A stretch of DNA of 64,000 bases from an uncultured virus (IMG/VR IMGVR_UViG_3300009167_000001). Lineage: Duplodnaviria; Heunggongvirae; Uroviricota; Caudoviricetes. The position numbers and the translations under genes are program-made. The stretch is from the IMG/VR virus record IMGVR_UViG_3300009167_000001; one strand, given 5' to 3'. The notes under the pieces are model-generated. The model was not told the DNA's origin and did no database searches. It was given only the letters and a program-made list of their open reading frames with translations. Below are positions 30,577 through 52,602 of this stretch, piece by piece; position 1 is the first letter of the stretch; each line of letters opens with the position of its first letter.

Positions 30577-30632
30577 AAAAAAGTGGTTATCCTATAAGAA
30601 TCAGATACAGTAAAATTAAGGTTATCCTATAA
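30561..30632. repeat. Imperfect tandem repeat (~35 bp x2) at the left edge of the GC-rich island
   Basis: AAGAATCAGATAC...GGTTATCCTATAA twice. Confidence 0.8.
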
Positions 30633-30821
30633 ACAGGTAGCCGCTGCGGTACTCACCGCTTGGTTTAATGGTACGCTCCTTGTACCATTGTGCGGCTCGC
30701 GCTTCGCTCGCGAGCAAGCGGTACAAGAGCCGGGAGCGCTCGCGCGCTCGCGCTTGCTCCCGGCTCCAATCATGTAGCGCACCGCTCTTGCGTATGCGGT
30801 GCGGAGATCGCCGCTCCCGCT

Positions 30822-31076
30822 CTAAGCGAGCGGTGCGAGAATGACGGTATACAAGCCGGTAGACTTGCTCCGCTTGATACTGGCGGTAGCTTTCGCTCCC
30901 GCGCTTTCGATTGCCGCTTGCGCGGCCTTGAGAGCCGCAACCGGCTCCGTGCTCACGCCGTTAGGCTGTACCGCAACCGGCTTGCCCGTTTCGGCAAGCT
31001 TGGCAAGTAGAGCGCTCCAGTCGCGCGCTGGCTTACCTCTTCCCGGCTTGCTGTACTCTTCCCAATCACTAAGCAT
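30822..31076 (-). CDS. Hypothetical protein (MLSDWEEY...)
   Basis: AAAAGAGGTA SD precedes the ATG at 31076. Confidence 0.65.
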   Translation of the reverse strand: MLSDWEEYSKPGRGKPARDWSALLAKLAETGKPVAVQPNGVSTEPVAALKAAQAAIESAGAKATASIKRSKSTGLYTVILAPLA

Positions 31077-31203
31077 AGATACCTCTTTTCCGTGCCGCTC
31101 CAATCGGCACTATAAGCCGAGAGCCGGTTTCCCGGCTCTCGCTCTTGCGTGTTACTTGTATATAGCACGGCTCCGCTCGCGCTAGTACATTTTGCAACCG
31201 GCT

Positions 31204-31914
31204 CTAGATATCAAGGCCCCATTTACTTACGAGCCGCGCGTGCCGCTCTTGTGCCTCTTGCCGCTCTTGCTCGTGCGCTCGCTCGTACCTCTTCCGCCAT
31301 GCGGCTCTAGCTCGCTCGCTTTTGAGCGCGGGAGCGCGAGCCGGTATGCTGGCGGGAGATCGCCGCATACGCTCCCGCTCAAGCCGTGCCGCTTGCTCTT
31401 GCTCTAGATACCATTTTGCGAGCGCTCTAGCCGTCTTGCCGCGCTTGATTGGCTCGCGCTCGGCTAGTACTAGCTCGGCTTGCTCGCTCCAGTCGTGCGG
31501 CTCTAGCAAGCTTGAGTCTAGACTTGTGGAGCGCGGCACCCATTGAATACCGGAGCGGAGCAAGCGACGACGACGACGACGGCTCGTATGCTCTAGAAAA
31601 GAGCCGTGCGGCTTGCGGTATATGTCTTTTCCGCTCCCGGTTGATTGGAAGTCTTCCGCGCTCCACTTGCGTATTTTGAGCGCTCCGCTCCCGCTTGTCT
31701 CGCTCGGCACGAGCCAAACCCCAATCGAGCACGGCTCTATATAGAGCGGTATCGGCTCCCGCGCTTGATACCATGCGCGCTTGAGCGCTCTTACGGTCGC
31801 TTTCGGTACCTCTTGCACTAGTACCGCGCTCCGCTCGTGATTGGCTTGCTCCGCATACTCGCGGAGCAATCCAGCGAGCAAGAGCCGCTCTTGCTTTTGC
31901 TCTTCCCGGTTCAT
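31204..31914 (-). CDS. Hypothetical Arg/Glu-rich protein
   Basis: 236 aa; same AAAAGAGGTA SD. Confidence 0.65.
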   Translation of the reverse strand: MNREEQKQERLLLAGLLREYAEQANHERSAVLVQEVPKATVRALKRAWYQAREPIPLYIEPCSIGVWLVPSETSGSGALKIRKWSAEDFQSTGSGKDIYRKPHGSFLEHTSRRRRRRLLRSGIQWVPRSTSLDSSLLEPHDWSEQAELVLAEREPIKRGKTARALAKWYLEQEQAARLERERMRRSPASIPARAPALKSERARAAWRKRYERAHEQERQEAQERHARLVSKWGLDI

Positions 31915-31919
31915 TCTTG

Positions 31920-32204
31920 CTACCTCTTTTCTTGGCTTGTATCTAGAGCAAGCGCGAGCGCGGCAAGCGCTCGCTCGTGTTCACCGCTCGCGCGGTATAG
32001 CTCTTCCGCCGCTCTTGCGTTCATTCCCGGTATCTTGGCTCCCACCGCATAGAGCCGCGCGAGTGTAGCTAAATCGCTCGGCTCCGTCGCTCGATACCGC
32101 CAAGCGACGTTATGCGCTCGCACCCCTAGCTCAAGCGGAGCAAGAAATTGCTCGCACCGCTCCGCGCGCTCCCGCTCCGCGCGCTCCCATCTTGTCTCTT
32201 GCAT
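31920..32204 (-). CDS. Hypothetical protein
   Basis: 94 aa; same AAAAGAGGTA SD. Confidence 0.65.
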   Translation of the reverse strand: MQETRWERAERERAERCEQFLAPLELGVRAHNVAWRYRATEPSDLATLARLYAVGAKIPGMNARAAEELYRASGEHERALAALALALDTSQEKR

Positions 32205-33075
32205 CTTGTACCTCTTTTCGGCTCGTGCCGCGCGGTGCGCGGCTCTAGATAGATACTAGCACGATATCGGCACAAGAGCGCAAGCGCTCAAGTATGCCGA
32301 ACGGAGATCGCCGCTCGGCACGAGCGAGTTATCGAGATTATCGGGAGTTATCGCGGCTCGATAACTCCGCGAGCAAGAGCGCGGCTCGTATGCTCGCGCG
32401 AGAGCATACCGGCTCGGCTCGGCTCCGGCTCGGCTTGCCGCTCGTATGCTCTCCGGCCACGCATACGCTCAAGCGCTCGCGCTTGGCTCGTATGCTCTCC
32501 CGCCAGCATACCGGCACGAGCGAGCGCGGCTTGCTCTATATAGAGCGGGAGCGAGCGCGGCTCGCGCTCGGCTCGTATGCCGAACGGAGATCGCCGCGCT
32601 TGAGCGCTCGCAAGCGCTCGGCTCCCGGCTTGCTTTCGGTACTATCAAGCGCTCGGCTCGTGCTATGGTACGCATATACCGAAAAAAGGCTCTATAAATC
32701 CCCTGCTAATCGGCACAATTTAGAGCCGCGGGGAAGAGCCGGCAAAAAGAAAAGAGGTAGTAAATGGTACTATTAGCTCGAATAATTGAACATATGCTTA
32801 CTCGCAAGCGATATCGAGATATCATAGAATGATATCGCGCTGAATCCTGGTCCAGTGGTATAGCCAATAGACCATTCAATGGTATATCAAATATACCAAA
32901 GTGAACATTTGTTTGGTCTAAAGGCTATACCATTAGGCCATTCGTGTAGGTGTACGCGCTCGTGTAGGTGCGTATAATAAGAAGTCCGTACCAATTTTTT
33001 ATCATAAGGCTTTCGTACCAATTTTTCTAAAGTGTTTTTTAACACGCGCGTATGTAGAAAAGGGGTGATAAATCA

Positions 33076-33824: not shown

Positions 33825-34047
33825 CTTACGGCAGTAGATGAGGGCATTAAGTAATTCATATATTGCTCTTCTGCAATTCACTAATCTAACCTGATTGCAG
33901 AAAAGAGCAGATATTGATTACTGAAACCCCCATTTACTGCCTTTTTTTGGGTTCTGCAAAAAAAGCTAATTCGACTCAGATAGCCATTTTTAGTGGTGAC
34001 GAAGTCGAATAACCTGTATATGTACAGAAAGCAAACCTAGAAATAGG

Positions 34048-34101
34048 TGTCCATAAATATGGACATGCTTATGTACAGAATATTGTCCATAAATGTGGAC
34101 A
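34048..34101. promoter_or_regulatory. Two palindromic operator-like sites
   Basis: TGTCCATAAATATGGACA (34048) and TGTCCATAAATGTGGACA (34084). Confidence 0.55.
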
Positions 34102-34365
34102 ATAAGAAAGGAAGAAAAGAAATGCAGGACTTTGAAGGAATAGCAATTCGTTCTAAGGATTATCCAGAATGGGTAAGTCTGGAAGATGTATGTAAATCAA
34201 TCACTACTGGGAAGAATGTGGCTAACATCGAAGCCTTTTCTTTTTGGTTTTGCAGAAACTATAACCTCGATGATTTTGCAGAGGGAGAAGAAATTCTTCT
34301 AGAAGAAGAACCAAGTCCTGAACGTACTTGGATGCTCTACAAAATGGTTATAGAGAGGTTTTGAG

Positions 34366-34731
34366 ATGGTTGAAGATTTTGAGAATATGGAAGAAAAACC
34401 AGAATTGGATGATTGGGAAGATATCATTGAACCATCTCCTTTTGCTGGTTTCATTTCGGAAACGCCGGTTTGGTTGTATGCTACTGTTAATAGCGATATC
34501 ATAAAGTTATGGCATAAGAATTTGCCATTCTTTTTGACCGAGTTTGTACGCGACTTCAACCAGAAAGTTTTGGACAGTATTCAAATCTCAAAGTATTCTG
34601 TAATTCTAAGGACTGTGCTTAGAACAGAATATGAAGCATCAAAGTTTATTGATGATGCTAAGAGATGTGGAATCTATATAAAGCAACGGTATTCAGAGCC
34701 AATTCCTGAACGTGGAGTAATCTTCAAGTGA
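34366..34731 (+). CDS. Hypothetical protein
   Basis: 121 aa; GAGG SD. Confidence 0.5.
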   Translation: MVEDFENMEEKPELDDWEDIIEPSPFAGFISETPVWLYATVNSDIIKLWHKNLPFFLTEFVRDFNQKVLDSIQISKYSVILRTVLRTEYEASKFIDDAKRCGIYIKQRYSEPIPERGVIFK

Positions 34732-35085
34732 AGTGAGGAAGAGATGGAAATTTGGTGTGTAGAAAATGAAGATGGTGACACTGTTAGACTTTTTACTAAC
34801 TTCGAAGCTGCACAACGTTTTCTACTAGAATATAAAGAACTAGGGTGCGAAATTTGTAAACGATGGGCGTTCACTGGTCATGAAGAAGAAGACAGAGTAA
34901 TAGAACAAGTGATGCTTTTGGAAAAGGTTGGTTACATTCCTGCTCAGTTGAATATGGGGGGATGAATCGCTTTTCTATTACTCCTGACTCCACGGAGTAT
35001 AAATAAAAGGAGTCGATTCGGGATTTAATCCCGAACGAGTTGGTTAAAGACCAACGAAAAATCACTCATGCACGAAAAGTGAAAG

Positions 35086-35916
35086 GTGGTGTTCAAAATG
35101 CAATTGTCGAGTATTGTTGATAGTATTGTGAAGAACATCACTATTGATGAGTATGAAAAGCAAGAAAAACGTGCTTCTATTGAGAACAAGTTTCGGTTTG
35201 CAAAAGATTCTTGGAACGAAACTTGTGACGTTTGTGGAAAAGAATCAAATCGTACTGGCTATAGTGGGCATAAACTCGTCTGCTCTTCTTGTGCAAGAAA
35301 AATAGCAAGAGCAGTACTTATATCCGTAACTATGAAGAATATCCGTAATAAGGAATATTCTCGCGGTGTTGGATACGGATATAAACTCGCTACTGGAAAC
35401 GCTTTTGGCTTTGAAACCGTAGAGTTTATTAAAATGGTTGTCGAAGACGCTGAAAGCGCTAACAAGACGGTACATTTTCTCGGAAGAGATATGGACGTAT
35501 TGTTCATGGCATTTAGCCTGAAAGATAATGTAAATTATCTCGCTGGTTGGAATCGTGATTTCCAGTACAAGTCTGTAGAATCAAAGAAGAAACTTCTTGC
35601 TGTAAATAACGTGCAAGAAGGAGACTTTGTTATTGATACTGGTTTTGTTGGAAGTATAATCAATGATATTCGCGCTCATGTGAATGTTAAAGGTTATTTG
35701 CTTTCTGCAACTCCTGGTAATCAATATACTTATCTGTATGACGAACACAAGTGGGATTATCGTGATTGGGTTGTACAGATAGAACACTTTGATAGAGCAA
35801 GAAAAGTCATCATCAATGATGAAACTAATCTTCCTACTGAAGTGTATACGAAACCTTCGTGGTTTGAAGATGGTTTATTCCACGGTTTTGTAAAAGGTGT
35901 TTCTAATCTGGTGTAG
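35086..35916 (+). CDS. Hypothetical protein with CxxC pair
   Basis: 276 aa; CDVC...CSSC. Confidence 0.55.
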   Translation: MVFKMQLSSIVDSIVKNITIDEYEKQEKRASIENKFRFAKDSWNETCDVCGKESNRTGYSGHKLVCSSCARKIARAVLISVTMKNIRNKEYSRGVGYGYKLATGNAFGFETVEFIKMVVEDAESANKTVHFLGRDMDVLFMAFSLKDNVNYLAGWNRDFQYKSVESKKKLLAVNNVQEGDFVIDTGFVGSIINDIRAHVNVKGYLLSATPGNQYTYLYDEHKWDYRDWVVQIEHFDRARKVIINDETNLPTEVYTKPSWFEDGLFHGFVKGVSNLV

Positions 35917-35969
35917 TAGAAAGGAAAAGGTGATTGTTGTGCATCCCCCTTAAAAACTATATTGGTTCT

Positions 35970-36590
35970 TCTACAGCAGAAAAGCCGTTAGAAAATAACG
36001 TACTAGCTATGGTTAAACTCCATAGGTTTTCTAATGGTTGCTGAATTATCCTATTGCGAGTCTTACTCCTGGATAATTCAACTCTAATTAAATTATATTT
36101 AATGAAAAGATTACGAGTTAGGTACTGTTTCCGAAATCCTTTTTTATAAAAGGTAACGGTGGAGTCGAAATCCTAACACGCGCAATTAACGAACGTGATA
36201 TTGCGAACTTTAAAGAATAGGATACGGATACCATTTCAATGACGATTGATGGGTCGCAAGGAATTCCGTAACCGATAGCTAAGTCGTGATGCTATCAAAA
36301 AAGGAAAACGTTGACTTTTGCTTATTTCAATACGTTTCCTACGGTAGAGTAAATAAGCTATTCCTGTACGCCTAGTCAGCGTGGAAGACGAAGATATTGG
36401 GTTGACTATCCAATATTCTTAACGTGGTTTTGGACCTCACGTTTTAATCGTCTGAACTCCCATTATAGAGTGGGGAGCAGGAATAATTATCTTAATTAGA
36501 TACGGATACTGTACGCTTGAAAGACAGCGTAGAGTCGTTTAATGCCGTAACTGATAGTTATTCGTGATACTATCATCAAATACTCGTCTT
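35970..36590 (+). ncRNA. Candidate large structured RNA with three copies of a covarying motif
   Basis: No long ORF; many stems; motif copies at 36115-36205, 36221-36296, 36499-36575. Confidence 0.6.
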
Positions 36591-37547
36591 CTTGAAAGGA
36601 GAAGAAATGAGTGAAAGAATCTATTTGGGAGAATGGTTATCTCAAATGGAAAAGGTTGCGACATACCGAAAAATGTCGCAAATAGAGAATGGTAAACTCA
36701 TTCTCACTCCCATTAACCGTATTCAACGGAAATGGGCAGAAGCAATCAAAACCCGTCTTAATAAAGATGGTTTTGAAAATGTTTCTATCTCTGGCTAAGG
36801 AATAGTTCTTATCGCCTCCTAAGAATTTATTCCTAAGCGTGGGTATGATGGTGAAGCTAATCGAAATTGCCTCCTTTTGATTAGAGGGAATAATTCCCTA
36901 ACTCACCATCATGCCCTTTTTTTGTGTAGAGTAAAACAATAATTATTGACTCTTAGCGAAAGGTGGTAAAAATGAATTGGGGAATCTGTACTGCAACTGG
37001 AATATCTATGAAGGACTATGAAGGTTGTGGTGCAACAGTTTGTGCCGCTTGTAGATATTGGATTCATGACGTAAAACAAAAACCTTTCCCTTATAATTGG
37101 GAAGAGGCTGGAGATTTCAATGGATGAAGTCATGCTTCATTTTCCAACTGCTTTTCATATTGAAAGCAGTAATACTCCTGAGAATCCAAAATGGTTAGTG
37201 ATGTGGCTTATGCGAATTCTTCGGATATGCGATACTGAAGAAGAAGCTCAAAAAACTCTGGGTGAATGGTTAACACCAGACGTTCGGAAAAGAAGCTAAC
37301 TCTAATCCTATCTGTAGTATGAGGGGTGTAAGTCCCTATCTTCCTTGGGCGAAAGCTAAGGGAATAGCTAATGAAAGCGATACTACAGATAGACAGTTTG
37401 AATCCCGAGAGATAGTTAACAGATAGAAATATCTGAATGGGAGAATCAATAGTATTAGCCTCTGATTGATAATATCAGAGAAGTTCCATTCTATTGAAAC
37501 TGTTTGACGCTATCTCAATATAAATAAGAAAGGAAAGGGGGTGAATC

Positions 37548-38204
37548 GTGCGTTTTATTGGTGATGTGCATGGAAAATTTGATGCTTATTTGGCACTTAT
37601 TGAAGGAGTGGATAAATCTATTCAATTAGGAGATATGGGAATTGGATTTGGAAAAGAATTTCCGCTCACTAAAATATCTGCCAATTGTCACGGATTTATT
37701 CGTGGTAATCATGATAATCCAAAAGAATGTGAAAAATTGTTTCCTCTTTGGATTAGAGATGGAACTTTCTATGAAGGTGTGTTCTGTTTAGGTGGTGCAT
37801 GGTCAATTGATTTTGAATATAGGCAGAGATATGAAGAAGCCACTGGTAGAAAAATATGGTGGCCGAATGAAGAAGTCTCTGTTCCAAAACTTCAAAAGAT
37901 AATTGACTACTATGAAGAAGAAAAGCCTGAAGTTGTAGCTACGCATGATTGCCCTACTATAATGGCTCATGAAATTAAAAGCCAACATGAGTGGGATAAA
38001 TCGAAAACTCGTCAGGCATTGGATAGAATGTTTGAAATCCATAAGCCAAAACTTTGGGTTTTTGGTCATCATCATTTGAATCTATTAAGAGACATTGAAG
38101 GAACAAGGTTTATCTGTCTGGATGAACTTAGTTTTGTTGATGTTGAAACCGATGGTTCATTGATAATGACCGATATCCAACGAAAGCTTTGGGAGAAGAA
38201 ATGA
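37548..38204 (+). CDS. Metallophosphoesterase
   Basis: GDVHG, QLGDMG, RGNHD, THDCP, FGHHH. Confidence 0.85.
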   Translation: MRFIGDVHGKFDAYLALIEGVDKSIQLGDMGIGFGKEFPLTKISANCHGFIRGNHDNPKECEKLFPLWIRDGTFYEGVFCLGGAWSIDFEYRQRYEEATGRKIWWPNEEVSVPKLQKIIDYYEEEKPEVVATHDCPTIMAHEIKSQHEWDKSKTRQALDRMFEIHKPKLWVFGHHHLNLLRDIEGTRFICLDELSFVDVETDGSLIMTDIQRKLWEKK

Positions 38205-38605
38205 TATCTGAATTCCAAGGGGAGTTTAGATTTCTTTCTAACTTCTGGCCGTGCAAAATTTACTTTGAGGGAATGTGGTATGATTCAGTTGAACATGCAT
38301 ATCAAGCAGCTAAAACTCTTGATATGGATGAGAGACTAAGAATTTCATTTCTTGAAACTCCAGGAAAAGCTAAACGCGCTGGAAAAGAACTGAAGATAAG
38401 GCCAGATTGGGAAGAGATTAAAATTCCCATAATGCGCGAATTACTCATAAAGAAATTTTCTCATAGAGAACTCATGTTTCGCCTAAAGAAAACTGAAGGC
38501 GAATTGATTGAGGGAAACAATTGGGGAGATACTTTTTGGGGAGTTTGCAAAGGCCAAGGACAAAACATTCTTGGCAAATTACTTATGGAAATAAGAGATT
38601 CTTAA
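38201..38605 (+). CDS. NADAR (YbiA-like) hydrolase
   Basis: FLSNFW, SVEHAYQAAK, RPDWE, KF, LIEGN.WGDTFWG...GQN.LGKLLMEIR. Confidence 0.9.
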   Translation: MISEFQGEFRFLSNFWPCKIYFEGMWYDSVEHAYQAAKTLDMDERLRISFLETPGKAKRAGKELKIRPDWEEIKIPIMRELLIKKFSHRELMFRLKKTEGELIEGNNWGDTFWGVCKGQGQNILGKLLMEIRDS

Positions 38606-38808
38606 TCTCTTATGCAAAGGCTGGGTTTGGCTTGCAAACCAATGGGATTCGGCTATAGTTTCGGGTGTTGAGGTAGAAATACCAAAATGAAGTTTATCCC
38701 CATGAATACTAGTGATGGGAACTGTGACTTCTGCACGAAACCTAAATAAGAAAAGTAGGTTTGCCGAATAGTTAGAAAAGGTGGGAATTCTAACAAAATA
38801 GTAAATAG

Positions 38809-38882
38809 TGGAATGAAGCATAATCAGTATATGCATCCGTCTTATAAGCGGAAGACAGTTGGTGCAATTCCAACCATTCCTA
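38809..38882 (+). tRNA. tRNA-Ile(UAU), atypical
   Basis: TCCGT-CTTATAA-GCGGA; T loop TGCAATT; 1:72 mismatch. Confidence 0.75.
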
Positions 38883-39370
38883 TTCCAGTAAATAAAGAAC
38901 TAGGAAAGGAAAGTAATGTCAAAATATGTAATGGTTTTGAACGATGGTGAAACTTTTACTGAATTGAACGATTGTTTTGTTGCAGAATTTCCTAAAGATT
39001 ATTCAACTGAACAAGTGGAAGAAGCTCTAAGGAATGGAGAGGATATTTTCAAAATCTATTTTGAAGAACATCATGGTGTTATTCACATGGATATACAGAA
39101 AACTGTTCCTCTTAATATCAACATTGAATAGCTGAAAGGAAGTAAAGTGGAAACAATAAAGCAGGAATTGATGGATATGCGGGATACCATGAAAGCTATG
39201 GCTGAAAATGAGTATCAAAGGACTACAAAAGAAGAACGTGAAATCTTTGAAGTTACTCATCCCGCATTTCGGTTGGGATATTCAATGGCCTATGATATGG
39301 CTGTGCATCGTATTAACAATCTGCTAGAAAAAATAGATAATCTAGCTGTTGGGTGAAGTTAGTTTTATTT

Positions 39371-43932: not shown

Positions 43933-44008
43933 GGGGGTGGATGGGCTTCGACTATTACTAAGCCGAAAGGAATGTAATAGGACTCGGGTTCAAATCCCGA
44001 CACCTCCA
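43933..44008 (+). ncRNA. Minimal tmRNA-like RNA: tRNA-like domain only, no tag reading frame
   Basis: GGGGGTG/CACCTCC-A acceptor with G3:U70; 5' ...TTCGAC; helix CTATTAC/GTAATAG; GAC then T arm TCGGG-TTCAAAT-CCCGA. Confidence 0.75.
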
Positions 44009-44886
44009 CTCTTCCAAAAACAAAAAAGGAGAAGAAATGGAAGACGAGCATTTCAAATCATTTGACAACACCGAAGATATGTTTGCTTATCTGGAAGAAC
44101 AGCAGAAGATAGCTAAGGAATTAGCTGACCAATATAATGCTAAGGAAATAATTCCTAAGTATAAGTATTGGGCTACTGATGAACCAACTATTGATTTGGT
44201 TATTGTTGGAAAAAGATGGGAATTACCTGCTAATCCATCTGATGATGACTTTGAAGATGAAGCAGCAACAAATGAAGCGATGGAAAGTGGTTGGATATTT
44301 GCTAAATGGTATTCATTTGCTTGCCCTGAAGGTGAGCTTGGGGATAATCATATTAGTAGATGCTATCCAATTCCAGAGTTTATTTTCTACTTCTGTCTTG
44401 ACCATATTCAAGGAGAATGTGGATGATTAAGGTATATGAATATGGTCCTGATGATTGCGAGCCACCTGAACCTGGAAAACATTGGCTTTCAATTGAAGAC
44501 GAGCATCCTGCTGGAAAAGAATATTGTGTTATTGTAGTAAGAGAGCCTTATAAAATAACACAAGAGCATTGGGATAGAGCTAATTATATTGCTAAATGCC
44601 TTGAAGAGAGGATTTAATGGATATTCGTTGCCCAATATGTGGAGAACCGTGGGATATGGATGAATTACATGAACTAATCCCTGATGAATGTGAAGACTAT
44701 CATAAAGCTGTAAGCCTTTTCCGAAATAAAGGTTGTGAAGTATTTGGTAGCAAACATGCTGAATTTGAACATGGAGACGCAGCACTATTATCTAGTGTAT
44801 TGTTTGATATACTGGGTGATGATGTTGATGGTATTGCATCTGAACTTGATGATGCTGAATATCTAGGACTTATTTAAGTCCTACTT

Positions 44887-49207: not shown

Positions 49208-49249
49208 GAGGGAGAGATGAGGATTTATTTCCTTGTCTCTCCCTCTTTT
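49208..49249 (+). terminator. Intrinsic terminator between the Ubl and E2 genes
   Basis: GAGGGAGAGA/TCTCTCCCTC stem followed by TTTT. Confidence 0.7.
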
Positions 49250-49271
49250 CTTGTTTCTAAGGAGAAAAAAG

Positions 49272-51140
49272 ATGCAAATATTCTTACCAACCTCTGAAAG
49301 AGAAGATTTTCAGTACTTTCTTCAAGAGAAAACAGAAGTTACTCATTATGTAGCTTTTTACAGAACAAATAATGGAGTTTATTCTCAACTTGCCTGGGAT
49401 GATGTAACTTTAACTTATGATAAAGTAAAAGAGTTTTGGGCTGAATATGACACAAGGAATAGAGCTATCTATTCGCTGGAAGATGGATTTGTAATATCTG
49501 CTGCTGAAGATGAAAAATTTACACATTTTTTCTATGGTAATCTCACTGGCTCTGGTTTGTCAAGAAAAGAATCAGATTTTACTGTGGATGCTGCTGTTTG
49601 TGCGTCTAAACTTGAAATAGATTTTCCACTGGCAGTAGAGTTTAATCCATCTAATTATTACATGATTAGAAATGTTCCTACCATAATTCTTCTTGGTAGA
49701 GAAGTATGGAGAAATCAAGGACAATATGCTCTTGTAAATAGTCCACAAGGCGTGGCGTTTAGAAATTTGGCGAACCTTATATTTATGCCAAACTCTATGG
49801 TTACTATGGAGAGTCTCTATTTCATTCAGGAAAATCGAGCTAACTGCATAGTATTACCGTTTTGTGTTATTAGAAAAAATGAATTAGGCTTTGGTAACAC
49901 TATCTTACTAAACTCAGTAATGTTTAGTGAAGATACAATGAGTGGAATAAAATCTATCTTTGAATTGCTGAAAGAGGATTTCTTCTGGAAGAAACTTCTT
50001 ATTCCTCTTGCCTTTACTGACTTTGAAACTTTAAAAACTGAGCTTGAAAACCAGGAAATTCCACTGGCCTTGCAAGCCAAGGCATTTATTCTTCAATCAA
50101 AAAATGGTCTACTGCTTGACATAAAGACTTTGAATGAAGCAAATGCAATTATTTCTGAAGAAATAAGCGAGCTTATTACAGAAATAACAGATAAAAAACT
50201 AACAATAGACCGGGGAGAGCAGCAGATAGCTGAGAAACAAAAGGAGTTTGAGAGTGCATTAAGTTCTACTAAGCTTGAAGACGAATTTAAGAAAGTAGAA
50301 ACTCTTCCCTATGTTACAAAGTTGACTTTTACTTCTGAGGGAATGGCAGTTTATACAGAACCTATTCAAATTGATAATGGACCTTTTCTTGGTGGATATA
50401 AGATTGTTTACAATCCAGCCACAAGGAAATTGGCAATTTTCAATGAAGTTAATCCAGTAACTAAGGATGGCCTATTAGCGCATCCTCATGTACCGCAGGG
50501 TGGTCTACCTTGTTTTGGTAATTATAGTGATATCTTTTTCAGGTTTGGTACAGGAGAATTTTATGTAGCCATAGAAGAATTGTATAGATTCTTAGGTGCA
50601 TATAATCCAGAAGATACCTGGGGAAGACGTATGTTATATTGGGATGATGAATTTTACTACAAGGATATGAAAGAGCGAGAGCTTCTCCATCTATTAGGAG
50701 ATGCTCATGATAGAAGATATCATGAAATAACAGGTGAACATTTGCCTTGCATAACAATTTGTTCTGAATGTGGTGAACCTGCGCGTACTTGTGCTTGTAA
50801 TATTTGTGAAGTATGCCAAAGACCGGAAGATGAATGTGAATGTTGGATTTGCACAAGATGTGGTGGAAATATAGATAATGGGGATTGTTATTGTGATAGA
50901 TGTGACCAATGCCATGAACTAGATGAAAACTGTGAATGTGATAGGTGCGAAGATTGTGAGGGTCTTCTAGACTATAACCATTACGGTTTGAATGGAGCTT
51001 GTGAATGTCCTAGATGCCCTGATAATTATGACCATAGAATTGATGAAGATGAAGATGAAACTTGTATGGAATGTCATGAATGGGAATGTCAGTATAATCA
51101 GAATAATGAGCCTCATCAAGAAGAAAGGTTGTTTGAATAA
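49272..51140 (+). CDS. Multidomain E2 (UBC-fold)-like protein with coiled coil and Cys-rich C-terminal repeats
   Basis: HPHV...G.PCFG followed by helices and 'YNPED'; repeated CxxC...CxC tail; AAGGAG SD. Confidence 0.75.
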   Translation: MQIFLPTSEREDFQYFLQEKTEVTHYVAFYRTNNGVYSQLAWDDVTLTYDKVKEFWAEYDTRNRAIYSLEDGFVISAAEDEKFTHFFYGNLTGSGLSRKESDFTVDAAVCASKLEIDFPLAVEFNPSNYYMIRNVPTIILLGREVWRNQGQYALVNSPQGVAFRNLANLIFMPNSMVTMESLYFIQENRANCIVLPFCVIRKNELGFGNTILLNSVMFSEDTMSGIKSIFELLKEDFFWKKLLIPLAFTDFETLKTELENQEIPLALQAKAFILQSKNGLLLDIKTLNEANAIISEEISELITEITDKKLTIDRGEQQIAEKQKEFESALSSTKLEDEFKKVETLPYVTKLTFTSEGMAVYTEPIQIDNGPFLGGYKIVYNPATRKLAIFNEVNPVTKDGLLAHPHVPQGGLPCFGNYSDIFFRFGTGEFYVAIEELYRFLGAYNPEDTWGRRMLYWDDEFYYKDMKERELLHLLGDAHDRRYHEITGEHLPCITICSECGEPARTCACNICEVCQRPEDECECWICTRCGGNIDNGDCYCDRCDQCHELDENCECDRCEDCEGLLDYNHYGLNGACECPRCPDNYDHRIDEDEDETCMECHEWECQYNQNNEPHQEERLFE

Positions 51141-51943
51141 TGGAAACTCCTAAAACAACTTTGTGGATTCCTCCAGAACTTTATGCAGAATTAATGTATT
51201 ATGCTCATAATGTAAACACAGAAATCGGTGGTTATGGTTTAATTGAGATTGATAAGGAACACAATGACCTGTTAGTTGGAGAAGTGTTTCTCACTGAACA
51301 AGAAGTTCATGGTTCAAAATGTGACCTTTCTGCTGCTGGTCTAGCAATTTATATGGAAGATTTAATTGCTAGGGGAGAACAAGATAAAATTGAACAGATT
51401 ACTTTGTGGTGGCACTCTCATGTAAATATGTCACCATCACATTCTGGTCAAGATGAAGATACAATGCTTGAATGGCCTAGCAATTATGTGGTATCCCTGG
51501 TAATAAATCGCAAGGGAGATATGAAAGCTCGTCTAATGTCTAAAACTCCAGTAATAGTTGCAGGAGATATAGATGTAGCAGTTGACTGGCTTGATAATGA
51601 AAGTGCTGAAGTATTAAATCAAACTATAGAAGATAAGGTAAAGGAATATACTCCCCCAAAGCCCGAGATAGTTGTTCAGGGTCAATTGCAACCAACTCCA
51701 AGAGGAAATGGTGGATACAGCCCGTATGGATGGCCTCAAAATTATTGGGGCGGTTATCAAAGCTGTATGGATAAAAAGCCAGAGAAAAAGGCTCATGAAC
51801 TAACTGATTCTGAATGGAAAAATGAGCAAGAACGGCTTGATGCCGAAATAAATGCCTGGGAAAACAATGATATTGAAGGAATCATCAAGTATGGTGGTCT
51901 AGATGAAGCTGAAGCTAAGGCAATAAGAGAAATGTGGGATTAG
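51140..51943 (+). CDS. JAB/MPN+ metalloprotease (deubiquitinase-like)
   Basis: N-terminal EIGG and WWHSHVNMSPSHSGQD (HxH-x7-S-xx-D). Confidence 0.85.
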   Translation: METPKTTLWIPPELYAELMYYAHNVNTEIGGYGLIEIDKEHNDLLVGEVFLTEQEVHGSKCDLSAAGLAIYMEDLIARGEQDKIEQITLWWHSHVNMSPSHSGQDEDTMLEWPSNYVVSLVINRKGDMKARLMSKTPVIVAGDIDVAVDWLDNESAEVLNQTIEDKVKEYTPPKPEIVVQGQLQPTPRGNGGYSPYGWPQNYWGGYQSCMDKKPEKKAHELTDSEWKNEQERLDAEINAWENNDIEGIIKYGGLDEAEAKAIREMWD

Positions 51944-52602
51944 TTATGACTGAAGCTTACACTAGAAGTATAGGAATTTTCAACCCCGATAATTCCCGAC
52001 CAGTAGCTATTCTTGGTTGTGGTTCTGTTGGTTCTTTCGTAGCCTTGACATTAGCCAAAATGGGAGTACAATCTCTACATCTTTGGGATGGTGACACGGT
52101 TGGAGAAGAAAACATTGGTTGCCAGAATTTTGGTTGGGAACACTTGGGTATGCCAAAGGTTGAAGCAGTAAAAGAAGTCATAATGGCTAATTCTCCAGTT
52201 AAGAGTGAGAATATCCATTGTCACAATGAGTTTATCGGACCAGACACTAGGTTGCCAAAGATTATCACTGTTGTAGCAGTTGATAGCATGACAATACGAC
52301 ATTTGATTTGGGATAAGCTCAAGAACAAAGTACCATTGATAGTCGATGGGCGCGTAGGTGGGCAGATAGTAAGAGTATTTAATGTACTTCCGACAGAAGA
52401 ATTCTCAATATACTATGAGAAATATCTTGTGCCAGAAGAAAAGGCATTAGAGCTTCCATGTACCGAAAGAAATGTCGCCTATGTTGCCAATATAGTACAA
52501 GCTATAATAGGGAGAGCCATACGAAATTTTATTGTAAATGGAAGAGTGGAGAAAGAAATCGGTATTGATGTTGCTACATTTATTAACTATGTAAAGGAAT
52601 AA
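51934..52602 (+). CDS. ThiF/E1-like Ubl-activating enzyme
   Basis: GCGSVGS, LAKMGV, DGDTV...NI..Q, G.PKV, AVDS, DGRVG; candidate catalytic Cys in ELPCTER. Confidence 0.9.
   Translation: MGLVMTEAYTRSIGIFNPDNSRPVAILGCGSVGSFVALTLAKMGVQSLHLWDGDTVGEENIGCQNFGWEHLGMPKVEAVKEVIMANSPVKSENIHCHNEFIGPDTRLPKIITVVAVDSMTIRHLIWDKLKNKVPLIVDGRVGGQIVRVFNVLPTEEFSIYYEKYLVPEEKALELPCTERNVAYVANIVQAIIGRAIRNFIVNGRVEKEIGIDVATFINYVKE

What the first reader, a model, noticed from the sequence alone, without database searches (positions are those of the whole stretch)
36115..36575. Unknown RNA motif present three times with compensatory changes
Seen: copies at 36115-36205, 36221-36296 and 36499-36575 share the layout GA-[P1]-(A)TAC-[hairpin]-GTCG-linker-[P1']-AC-[P3]-TA..CGTGAT-[P3']. 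Stems covary: P1 is GTTAGG/CCTAAC versus TACGG/CCGTA, and P3 is CGCAAT/ATTGCG, GATAGC/GCTATC or GATAGT/ACTATC. The junction words TAC, GTCG, AC and CGTGAT are invariant. A multi-way junction closed by TATTCCTG/CAGGAATA (about 36359-36485) lies between copies 2 and 3. Inference: a conserved tertiary fold, such as a ribozyme, aptamer or protein sponge. I cannot match it to a family I know.
Basis: partly seen in the sequence, partly recalled or inferred. Interest (0 to 1): 0.8.

Follow-up and report, generated by a model that had tools for sequence, protein, structure and literature searches.

The report
New phage RNA beside twister ribozymes
The three look-alike stretches are real copies of a small folded RNA, absent from the RNA family catalogue, that a group of uncultured phages shuffles among other RNA modules and self-cutting ribozymes; it most likely marks where the message is cut, perhaps by cutting itself, but this is untested.

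Summary
Confirmed. Three copies (36114-36205, 36220-36296, 36498-36574) lie between genes of a tRNA-rich uncultured phage; the layout occurred 0 times in 150 simulated windows and has no Rfam match. Seven more full copies lie behind the orthologous gene in 4 of 5 related contigs. Over 10 copies 97.5% of pair cells pair and 14 of 16 pairs change on both sides. The fold is N-G/C-N, an A.A mismatch, a 6-bp P1, a variable P2 and a 6-bp P3; 13 positions are invariant. Copies bracket other RNA modules, stand 21-27 nt before ribosome-binding sites, and twice lie 6-9 nt before a twister-like cut site. Best reading: a new self-cleaving RNA class (about 35%); rivals are a 5'-end guard (27%) or a released decoy RNA (20%). 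Scans of IMG/VR and GTDB gave chance hits only. Function and expression are untested.

The parts
36114..36205 (+). Motif copy 1 (P1 GTTAGG type; orthologous to L204:2831-2922)
   Evidence: descriptor; model R2 75.7 bits; alignment A6
36220..36296 (+). Motif copy 2 (P1 TACGGA type)
   Evidence: 67 bits; MFE recovers P1 and P3
36498..36574 (+). Motif copy 3; ribosome-binding site begins 21 nt and ATG 33 nt after it
   Evidence: (61 bits)
36302..36358 (+). Cargo, part 1: hairpin 36302-36340 whose loop is complementary over 8 nt to 36351-36358 (possible H-type pseudoknot)
   Evidence: seen in the sequence, coordinates, complement checked; no homologue to test covariation
36359..36485 (+).
   Evidence: fold z -2.89; blastn against L202-L206 best E 0.59
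36081..36113 (+). A/U-rich leader in front of the first copy, with a TATATT -10-like word; promoter or nuclease entry site (not decided)
   Evidence: 5' flanks 60-93% A+T in 10 of 10 copies
35984..36038 (+). Conserved stem with an 11-nt bulge and a T-loop-like hairpin, upstream module of the cluster; uncatalogued
   Evidence: motif in the window and 5 of 5 related contigs; covariation; no Rfam match
36042..36080 (+). Second conserved hairpin (GCGAG...CTC cap)
   Evidence: 5 sequences aligned
35930..35953 (+). 7-codon ORF behind a strong ribosome-binding site, ending Pro-Pro-stop; a 4-7 codon ORF stands here in 6 of 6 loci, ending Pro-Pro in 3
35086..35916 (+). Conserved 272-276 aa gene in front of the cluster (zinc-ribbon-like N-terminus; resembles the C-terminal part of predicted HAD-family hydrolases); used as the marker to find relatives
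   Evidence: 13 homologues incl. itself; Atlas structure rows, all under its naming bar; no PDB match at E<=0.001
36607..36798 (+). 63-aa ORF of unknown function behind copy 3
   Evidence: no Pfam or PHROG family

Best explanation
The motif is a portable, compact RNA fold that sets RNA ends inside a phage transcript packed with small RNA modules, most likely as a self-cleaving ribozyme of an undescribed class. Shown: the secondary structure (outer 2 bp, A.A mismatch, 6-bp P1, variable P2, 6-bp P3), two clusters of near-invariant unpaired bases (the P1/P3 hinge; the UCG..AU junction strand and the loop ending YGUGAU), fixed helix lengths, free peripheral insertions, same-strand placement, shuffled order, and closeness to twister-like ribozymes. 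Inferred: P3 folds back so that its loop docks on the junction strand (candidate RUC/GAU or CG/YG pairs) to build a catalytic core; cleavage by the copies, helped by twister where present, cuts out the RNA between them (about 200 nt between copies 2 and 3 here) and gives the next gene a fresh 5' end 17-27 nt before its ribosome-binding site. No cleavage, cut site or transcript has been observed.
For: Size 73-96 nt with 13 invariant and 21 at-least-9-of-10 positions among 53 core columns while P2 inserts run from 18 to 44 nt. Twister-P1-like ribozymes (E 3.8e-8 and 0.002, both under Rfam's gathering score) follow a copy directly in 2 of 4 related contigs that hold the motif. Copies stack with each other or with twister at the left edge of the cluster (window 1+2; L204 a+b+twister; L205 a+twister), as equivalent parts would; in 3 of 3 loci read to the next gene a cargo is bracketed by copies or by twister and a copy. 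Four copies, two of them partial, stand 17-27 nt before a ribosome-binding site of unrelated genes. No U-run follows any of the 10 full copies. Clustered hammerheads flank changing genes in prophages and cleave in vitro (PMC3088659, passages); twister-sister, pistol and hatchet were found by this kind of neighbourhood (PMC6765202, section 5).
Against: No experiment. The base rate is low: ten motifs picked beside ribozymes and tested did not cleave (PMC10085705, section 17), and further RAGATH-type motifs did not either. A twister cut only 6 and 9 nt behind a copy makes a second cutter redundant and fits equally well with the motif being the released product. No tertiary pair is backed by covariation: RUC/GAU pairs fully in 7 of 10, CG/YG in 9 of 10, without a double change. 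With 10 copies at 49-91% core identity, some invariance is common descent. The relatives were found through the neighbouring gene, so the context is a selected sample of 5 short contigs.
Confidence: 0.35

Rival explanations
1. A 5'-end guard or processing signal: a host or phage endonuclease cuts in the A/U-rich flank (or transcription starts there) and the fold, whose first bases are buried in a helix, stops 5'-to-3' decay and so stabilises the RNA or mRNA behind it, as viral xrRNAs do against RNase J1.
For: 5' flanks are 60-93% A+T in 10 of 10 copies; the 5'-terminal pair covaries A-U, C-G, G-C; most copies lie directly before a cargo or a ribosome-binding site; xrRNAs block RNase J1 and occur in tandem (PMC8374639, passages). 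Long purine-rich ribosome-binding sites hint at a Bacillota-like host with RNase J (inference, not tested).
Against: In L204 and L205 a twister cut 6-9 nt downstream would part the guard from everything it could protect. The pseudoknot that an xrRNA ring needs is not shown. The host is unknown.
Confidence: 0.27
2. The motif is itself the product: a small trans-acting RNA (protein decoy or ligand-binding RNA), released from the transcript and made in several copies to raise its dose.
For: A/U-rich, -10-like leader in front and twister cut behind would free about 100 nt (L205) or a two-copy RNA (L204) holding only the motif. Another module of the cluster also occurs among tRNA genes of Vibrio phage CHOED and Aeromonas phage 1233, so the cluster looks like a small-RNA array.
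Against: Four copies lie in 5' leaders just before a ribosome-binding site with no terminator or ribozyme behind them; no partner protein was identified.
Confidence: 0.2
3. Repeated domains of one large ornate RNA of the GOLLD/ROOL kind (about 500-600 nt), possibly self-assembling.
For: Phage with many tRNA genes; the whole region folds with z -5.7; GOLLD and ROOL lie near tRNAs in prophages (PMC5737381, passages).
Against: Number and order of copies and the intervening modules differ in every locus; the middle domain has no match in relatives; twister would cut such an RNA; no Rfam hit.
Confidence: 0.05
4. A riboswitch aptamer, single or tandem, controlling the gene behind it.
For: Aptamer-like size and conservation; four copies lie before ribosome-binding sites; in the window 36385-36392 could pair with 36585-36592 next to that site (seen in the sequence).
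Against: Downstream genes are unrelated short ORFs; 8 of 12 copies are not next to a gene; that alternative pairing is not seen in relatives; none found in GTDB by two patterns or in 151 plus 5 genomes by the model.
Confidence: 0.05

Closest known systems
Clustered hammerhead and twister ribozymes of phages and prophages (PMC3088659, passages; PMC6765202, section 5 and passages; Rfam RF03160)
   Same: Several copies in one phage region, on the coding strand, flanking changing genes; small size; conserved core with variable outer stems; twister-like neighbours in the same cluster.
   Different: No hammerhead or twister core, different helix order, no Rfam match; cleavage not shown; copies also bracket non-coding modules.
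RAGATH and HRIMA motifs (structured RNAs found beside self-cleaving ribozymes; PMC6765202 section 5, PMC10085705 sections 12, 15, 17)
   Same: Same kind of discovery context; unknown function; most tested ones did not cleave.
   Different: No Rfam family matches; HRIMA motifs are almost all from metatranscriptomes; two family words searched in that paper's supplement gave 0 hits for the 5' word and, in the 2 passages shown of 72 occurrences, only hammerhead rows for CGUGAU.
Varkud satellite ribozyme I/V kissing loop (PMC4138328, passages)
   Same: There a U-turn U696-G697-A698 loop pairs through G697-A698-C699 with G630-C632; here a loop ending UGAU could pair with an RUC(G) strand in the same way.
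   Different: Only a local likeness; none of the VS junctions or its active-site loop is present; the contact here has no covariation support and competes with the P2 base pairs.
Viral xrRNAs (PMC8374639, passages)
   Same: Compact fold with a paired 5' end, tandem copies, placed in front of the RNA that would be protected.
   Different: Known from eukaryotic RNA viruses; need a pseudoknot ring that is not shown here; twister cuts directly behind two copies.
GOLLD and ROOL large ncRNAs (PMC5737381, passages)
   Same: Phage context with tRNA genes; long structured intergenic region.
   Different: Those are single conserved architectures; here modules are shuffled; no Rfam match.

Membership tests
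Any Rfam 15 family | cmscan score at the gathering threshold, or a significant E-value, over the motif | tested here: not met
   Window gathering scan: only tRNA and tmRNA; 35900-36960 at E<=10: two chance hits, neither on a copy; L202-L206 at E<=1: nothing on the copies.
Hammerhead ribozyme | Conserved CUGANGA, GAAA and UH around three stems (core words recalled) | tested here: not met
   CUGANGA-like word in 2 of 10 copies, GAAA in 7 of 10 and not at a conserved column.
Twister ribozyme | L4 word GGUNNYAAGCC with two pseudoknots (core word from the RF03160 consensus) | tested here: not met
   0 of 10 copies; true twister-like hits are separate neighbours.
HDV-like / theta ribozymes | Nested double pseudoknot with a long-range P2 (recalled) | tested here: not met
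   Covarying helices are P1(P2) followed by a separate P3 hairpin; no long-range helix; copies are not next to tRNA genes.
Pistol, hatchet, twister-sister, hairpin, VS | Match to the family model and helix order | tested here: not met
   No Rfam hit at E<=10 or E<=1; helix orders compared from recall only.
Small self-cleaving ribozymes (function) | Site-specific self-cleavage leaving 2',3'-cyclic phosphate and 5'-OH | not testable with these tools
   Needs an in vitro assay.
Small self-cleaving ribozymes (function) | Compact conserved core, variable peripheral stems, neighbourhood of known ribozymes | tested here: met
Small self-cleaving ribozymes (function) | Pseudoknot or multi-stem junction supported by covariation | tested here: inconclusive
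   Candidate contacts pair in 7 to 9 of 10 copies with no double change.
xrRNA | Pseudoknot ring round the 5' end | tested here: inconclusive
   5' end is paired; ring-closing pairs unproven.
xrRNA | Blocks a 5'-to-3' exoribonuclease | not testable with these tools
   Needs an RNase J1 or Xrn1 assay.
Riboswitch | Consistent downstream gene class and expression platform | tested here: not met
   Four unrelated ORFs follow; no U-run after 10 of 10 copies.
GOLLD / ROOL-type large RNA | One conserved domain order over several hundred nucleotides | tested here: not met
   Module order differs in the window and L202-L205.

The most novel reading that the evidence does not exclude
The motif is the founding member of a new class of natural self-cleaving ribozyme, and this phage group uses it interchangeably with twister to cut a cassette-like array of several other uncatalogued RNAs (T-loop stem, pseudoknotted module Z, double-hairpin module W, module Y) out of one transcript.
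Probability: 0.3. Interest if true: 0.88.

Novelty: new variant of a known kind. Interest (0 to 1): 0.62.

Why it matters
New natural self-cleaving ribozyme classes are rare, and the purpose of ribozyme clusters in phages is an open question (PMC6765202, passages). Here ten diverse natural sequences under 100 nt with a covariation-backed structure are ready for a one-day cleavage assay. The locus also shows a phage cluster in which a twister sits among shuffled non-coding modules rather than between genes, which suggests that such clusters release small RNAs. If the motif does not cleave, it is still a candidate phage 5'-end guard or decoy RNA with a new fold.

Tried and rejected
The first four IMG/VR patterns and the first GTDB pattern were too strict for most homologues found later; the last pattern fits about half of the known copies, so absence from these collections is not shown. 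blastn against cultured phages and plasmids: no match to the motif. Protein-led scans of IMG/VR with the neighbouring gene found nothing; a structural-gene alignment found 8 loci, but neither these loci nor 5 related virus fragments of 17-66% completeness hold the motif; the nearest record does not cover this region. Model R2 found nothing in 5 and in 151 bacterial genomes (only part of the candidates were scored) or in L298-L300. Model R1 rested on a misaligned junction and was replaced. Sequencing runs: no RNA holder listed. The neighbouring protein gave no functional link to RNA. A switch through 36385-36392 pairing near the ribosome-binding site was considered and dropped as not seen in relatives. 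A DNA-level role (attC-like site) was considered from copy 1 only and dropped: other copies lack the core, all copies lie on the coding strand, and the alignment holds 2 G.U pairs and no A.C. Literature searches listed no paper on this motif; I did not read most of the listed papers, subscription papers are not in the library, and the supplements and database of bioRxiv 10.64898/2026.10.21.760802 (outline and passages seen) could not be searched and may hold the motif as an unnamed cluster.

Full report
Setting. The window is part of an uncultured tailed phage: endolysin, helicase, primase, CCA-adding enzyme and RNA ligase by PHROG, 21 tRNA genes by ARAGORN, longest contig on record about 117 kb. 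Seven listed runs hold at least half of the words of 34000-39000, all freshwater or wetland metagenomes from four coded studies, one of which may be the source. No whole genome was available to search.

The three copies lie at 36114-36205, 36220-36296 and 36498-36574 in the 690-nt gap between a 276-aa ORF and a 63-aa ORF. The descriptor finds these 3 and no other in the window, and 0 in 150 simulated windows. Rfam has no match at gathering score or at E<=10. Contigs of another run repeat the sequence of the copies without a difference.

Homologues. DNA patterns found only chance hits (see Tried and rejected). The upstream protein has 12 relatives at 45-75% identity; its alignment found 5 metagenome contigs. 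Four of them (L202-L205) carry 7 full copies behind the gene; L206 ends about 230 nt after it without a copy. A truncated copy lies at the start of L203 (E 1.1) and a 12-nt piece that may be the end of one at the start of L205; these two were left out of all alignments and pair counts. The first five homologues were found by a model built from two window copies only (E 3.8e-8 to 1e-3), so their detection is independent of the final model. Because the loci were picked through the gene, the link between gene and cluster holds by construction.

Structure. On the 10-copy MAFFT alignment, 97.5% of 160 pair cells are standard pairs, 14 of 16 pairs have a change on both sides, 0 of 500 shuffles reach these values and slid controls give 21-47%. 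RNAalifold predicts the same P1 and P3 on its own. Parsimony on a distance tree gives at least 23 simultaneous changes, though whole helices were probably replaced in few events. The fold: N-G pairs with C-N' (A-U, C-G, G-C seen), an invariant A.A mismatch, a 6-bp P1 with an invariant G-C, U, then AY/RU as the base of a P2 whose insert runs from 18 to 44 nt, the strand C-G-(0-4 nt)-W-A-U, and directly after P1 a 6-bp P3 with the loop N-A-(n)-YGUGAU and an invariant A behind it. Thirteen of 53 core columns are invariant and 21 are kept in at least 9 of 10; core identity is 49-91%. The AY/RU pairs are weak: predicted probability above 0.9 in only 2 of 10 copies and two double changes, one in the most divergent copy. 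Fixed helix lengths and two clusters of conserved unpaired bases suggest that the P3 loop docks on the junction strand. Candidates are RUC/GAU (7 of 10 fully paired), which recalls the U-turn kissing loop of the VS ribozyme (PMC4138328, passages), and CG/YG (9 of 10); neither shows a double change. A different element upstream of the same gene in L204 and L205 carries the same two words, GUGAU and AUCGAA, inside a covarying outer stem, and RNAalifold pairs them there; this is a hint from 2 sequences only.

Context. Each locus reads: gene, a 4-7 codon ORF with its own ribosome-binding site, a T-loop-like stem, a second hairpin, an A/U-rich stretch, then a first copy. What follows differs. Window: copy, copy, pseudoknot hairpin, multi-way junction, copy, gene. 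L203: copy, hairpin, module Y, module Z, copy, gene. L204: copy, copy, twister. L205: copy, twister, module W, pseudoknot hairpin, copy, branched RNA, module Z, gene. L202: copy, Y, start of Z. The twister-like hits score E 3.8e-8 and 0.002, under Rfam's gathering score; their expected cut lies 6 and 9 nt behind a copy. Four copies (two partial) end 17-27 nt before the ribosome-binding sites of unrelated genes. All copies are on the coding strand and none of the 10 full ones is followed by a U-run.

How it most likely works. The motif behaves as a movable boundary piece. Stacking with twister, bracketing of cargo and the place before ribosome-binding sites match what is reported for clustered hammerheads in prophages (PMC3088659, passages), and such neighbourhoods yielded three ribozyme classes (PMC6765202, section 5). 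I therefore put a new self-cleaving class first, at about 0.35. It stays below even odds because ten tested neighbours of ribozymes did not cleave (PMC10085705, section 17), because a twister cut right behind a copy fits as well with the copy being the product (0.2), and because A/U-rich 5' flanks with a paired 5' end fit a guard against 5'-to-3' decay (0.27; PMC8374639, passages). Riboswitch and single large RNA are unlikely (0.05 each). Structure, copy number and context are shown; tertiary contact, transcription, cleavage and host are inferred or unknown.

Novelty. It fails every membership test that could be run and matches no Rfam family. Seven literature searches listed no description, within the limits given above. 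Look-ups in this scan's notes by sequence and place found nothing; word look-ups showed other uncatalogued phage motifs in ribozyme-like positions, which I did not compare by sequence. The family is so far confined to one phage group and 10 full copies. I class it as a new variant of a known kind (ribozyme-associated phage RNA clusters) with interest 0.62.

Noticed in passing
window 37393-37516; L203:1268-1370 and 2401-2501; L205:2131-2253; start in L202:1644: Module Z: uncatalogued pseudoknotted RNA; a 7-nt loop word and its partner at the 3' end change together in three versions, with invariant AGTTTGAA, GAAACT and TTGACGCT; no Rfam match. As good a ribozyme candidate as the finding itself.
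   Followed up: partly
window 37313-37387; L205:1585-1710: Module W: junction with two T-loop-like hairpins (GGTGTAAGTCC and GCWAATGAAAGC) in 2 loci; no Rfam match; could be a double T-loop platform (inference).
   Followed up: no
L202:1607, L203:1230; L298:2505-2532 (Vibrio phage CHOED); L299:2501-2530 (Aeromonas phage 1233): Module Y: small stem with loop TATCGCTTGAATA preceded by GCGTTT, shared with tRNA arrays of two cultured phages and unannotated there.
   Followed up: partly
L204:1603-1652; L205:290-340: Sister element upstream of the conserved gene with the same two words as the motif (GUGAU and AUCGAA) in a covarying stem; not in the window or in 5 related fragments.
   Followed up: partly
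window 34981-35059; L204:1057-1130: Element with hammerhead-like core pieces (YCGA, inserted hairpin, CGA, stem, GAAA) but no stem III or cut site that I could find; no Rfam match.
   Followed up: partly
window 35930-35953 and the same place in L202-L206: Tiny ORF with a strong ribosome-binding site right behind the conserved gene in 6 of 6 loci, ending Pro-Pro-stop in 3; possible ribosome stall site.
   Followed up: no
window 43933-44011: Minimal tmRNA: 5' and 3' ends of the tRNA-like domain joined by about 13 nt, with no mRNA-like domain (59 bits).
   Followed up: no
window 30600-32800: G+C-rich island (about 53% against 36%) with odd low-complexity sequence and ORFs on the minus strand; may be the genome end, an origin or an insertion.
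   Followed up: no
window 36841-36916: Long hairpin with a 14-bp outer stem followed by a U-run behind the 63-aa ORF; terminator-like.
   Followed up: no
window 49233-52602: Three adjacent genes with a Prok-JAB-like (E 0.0009, under cut-off) and a ThiF/E1 domain: a possible ubiquitin-like conjugation module.
   Followed up: no
L300:2064-2115 and 2476-2534 (MT835475.1): Two twister-P1-like ribozymes in an unannotated phage record; no copy of the motif near them.
   Followed up: partly
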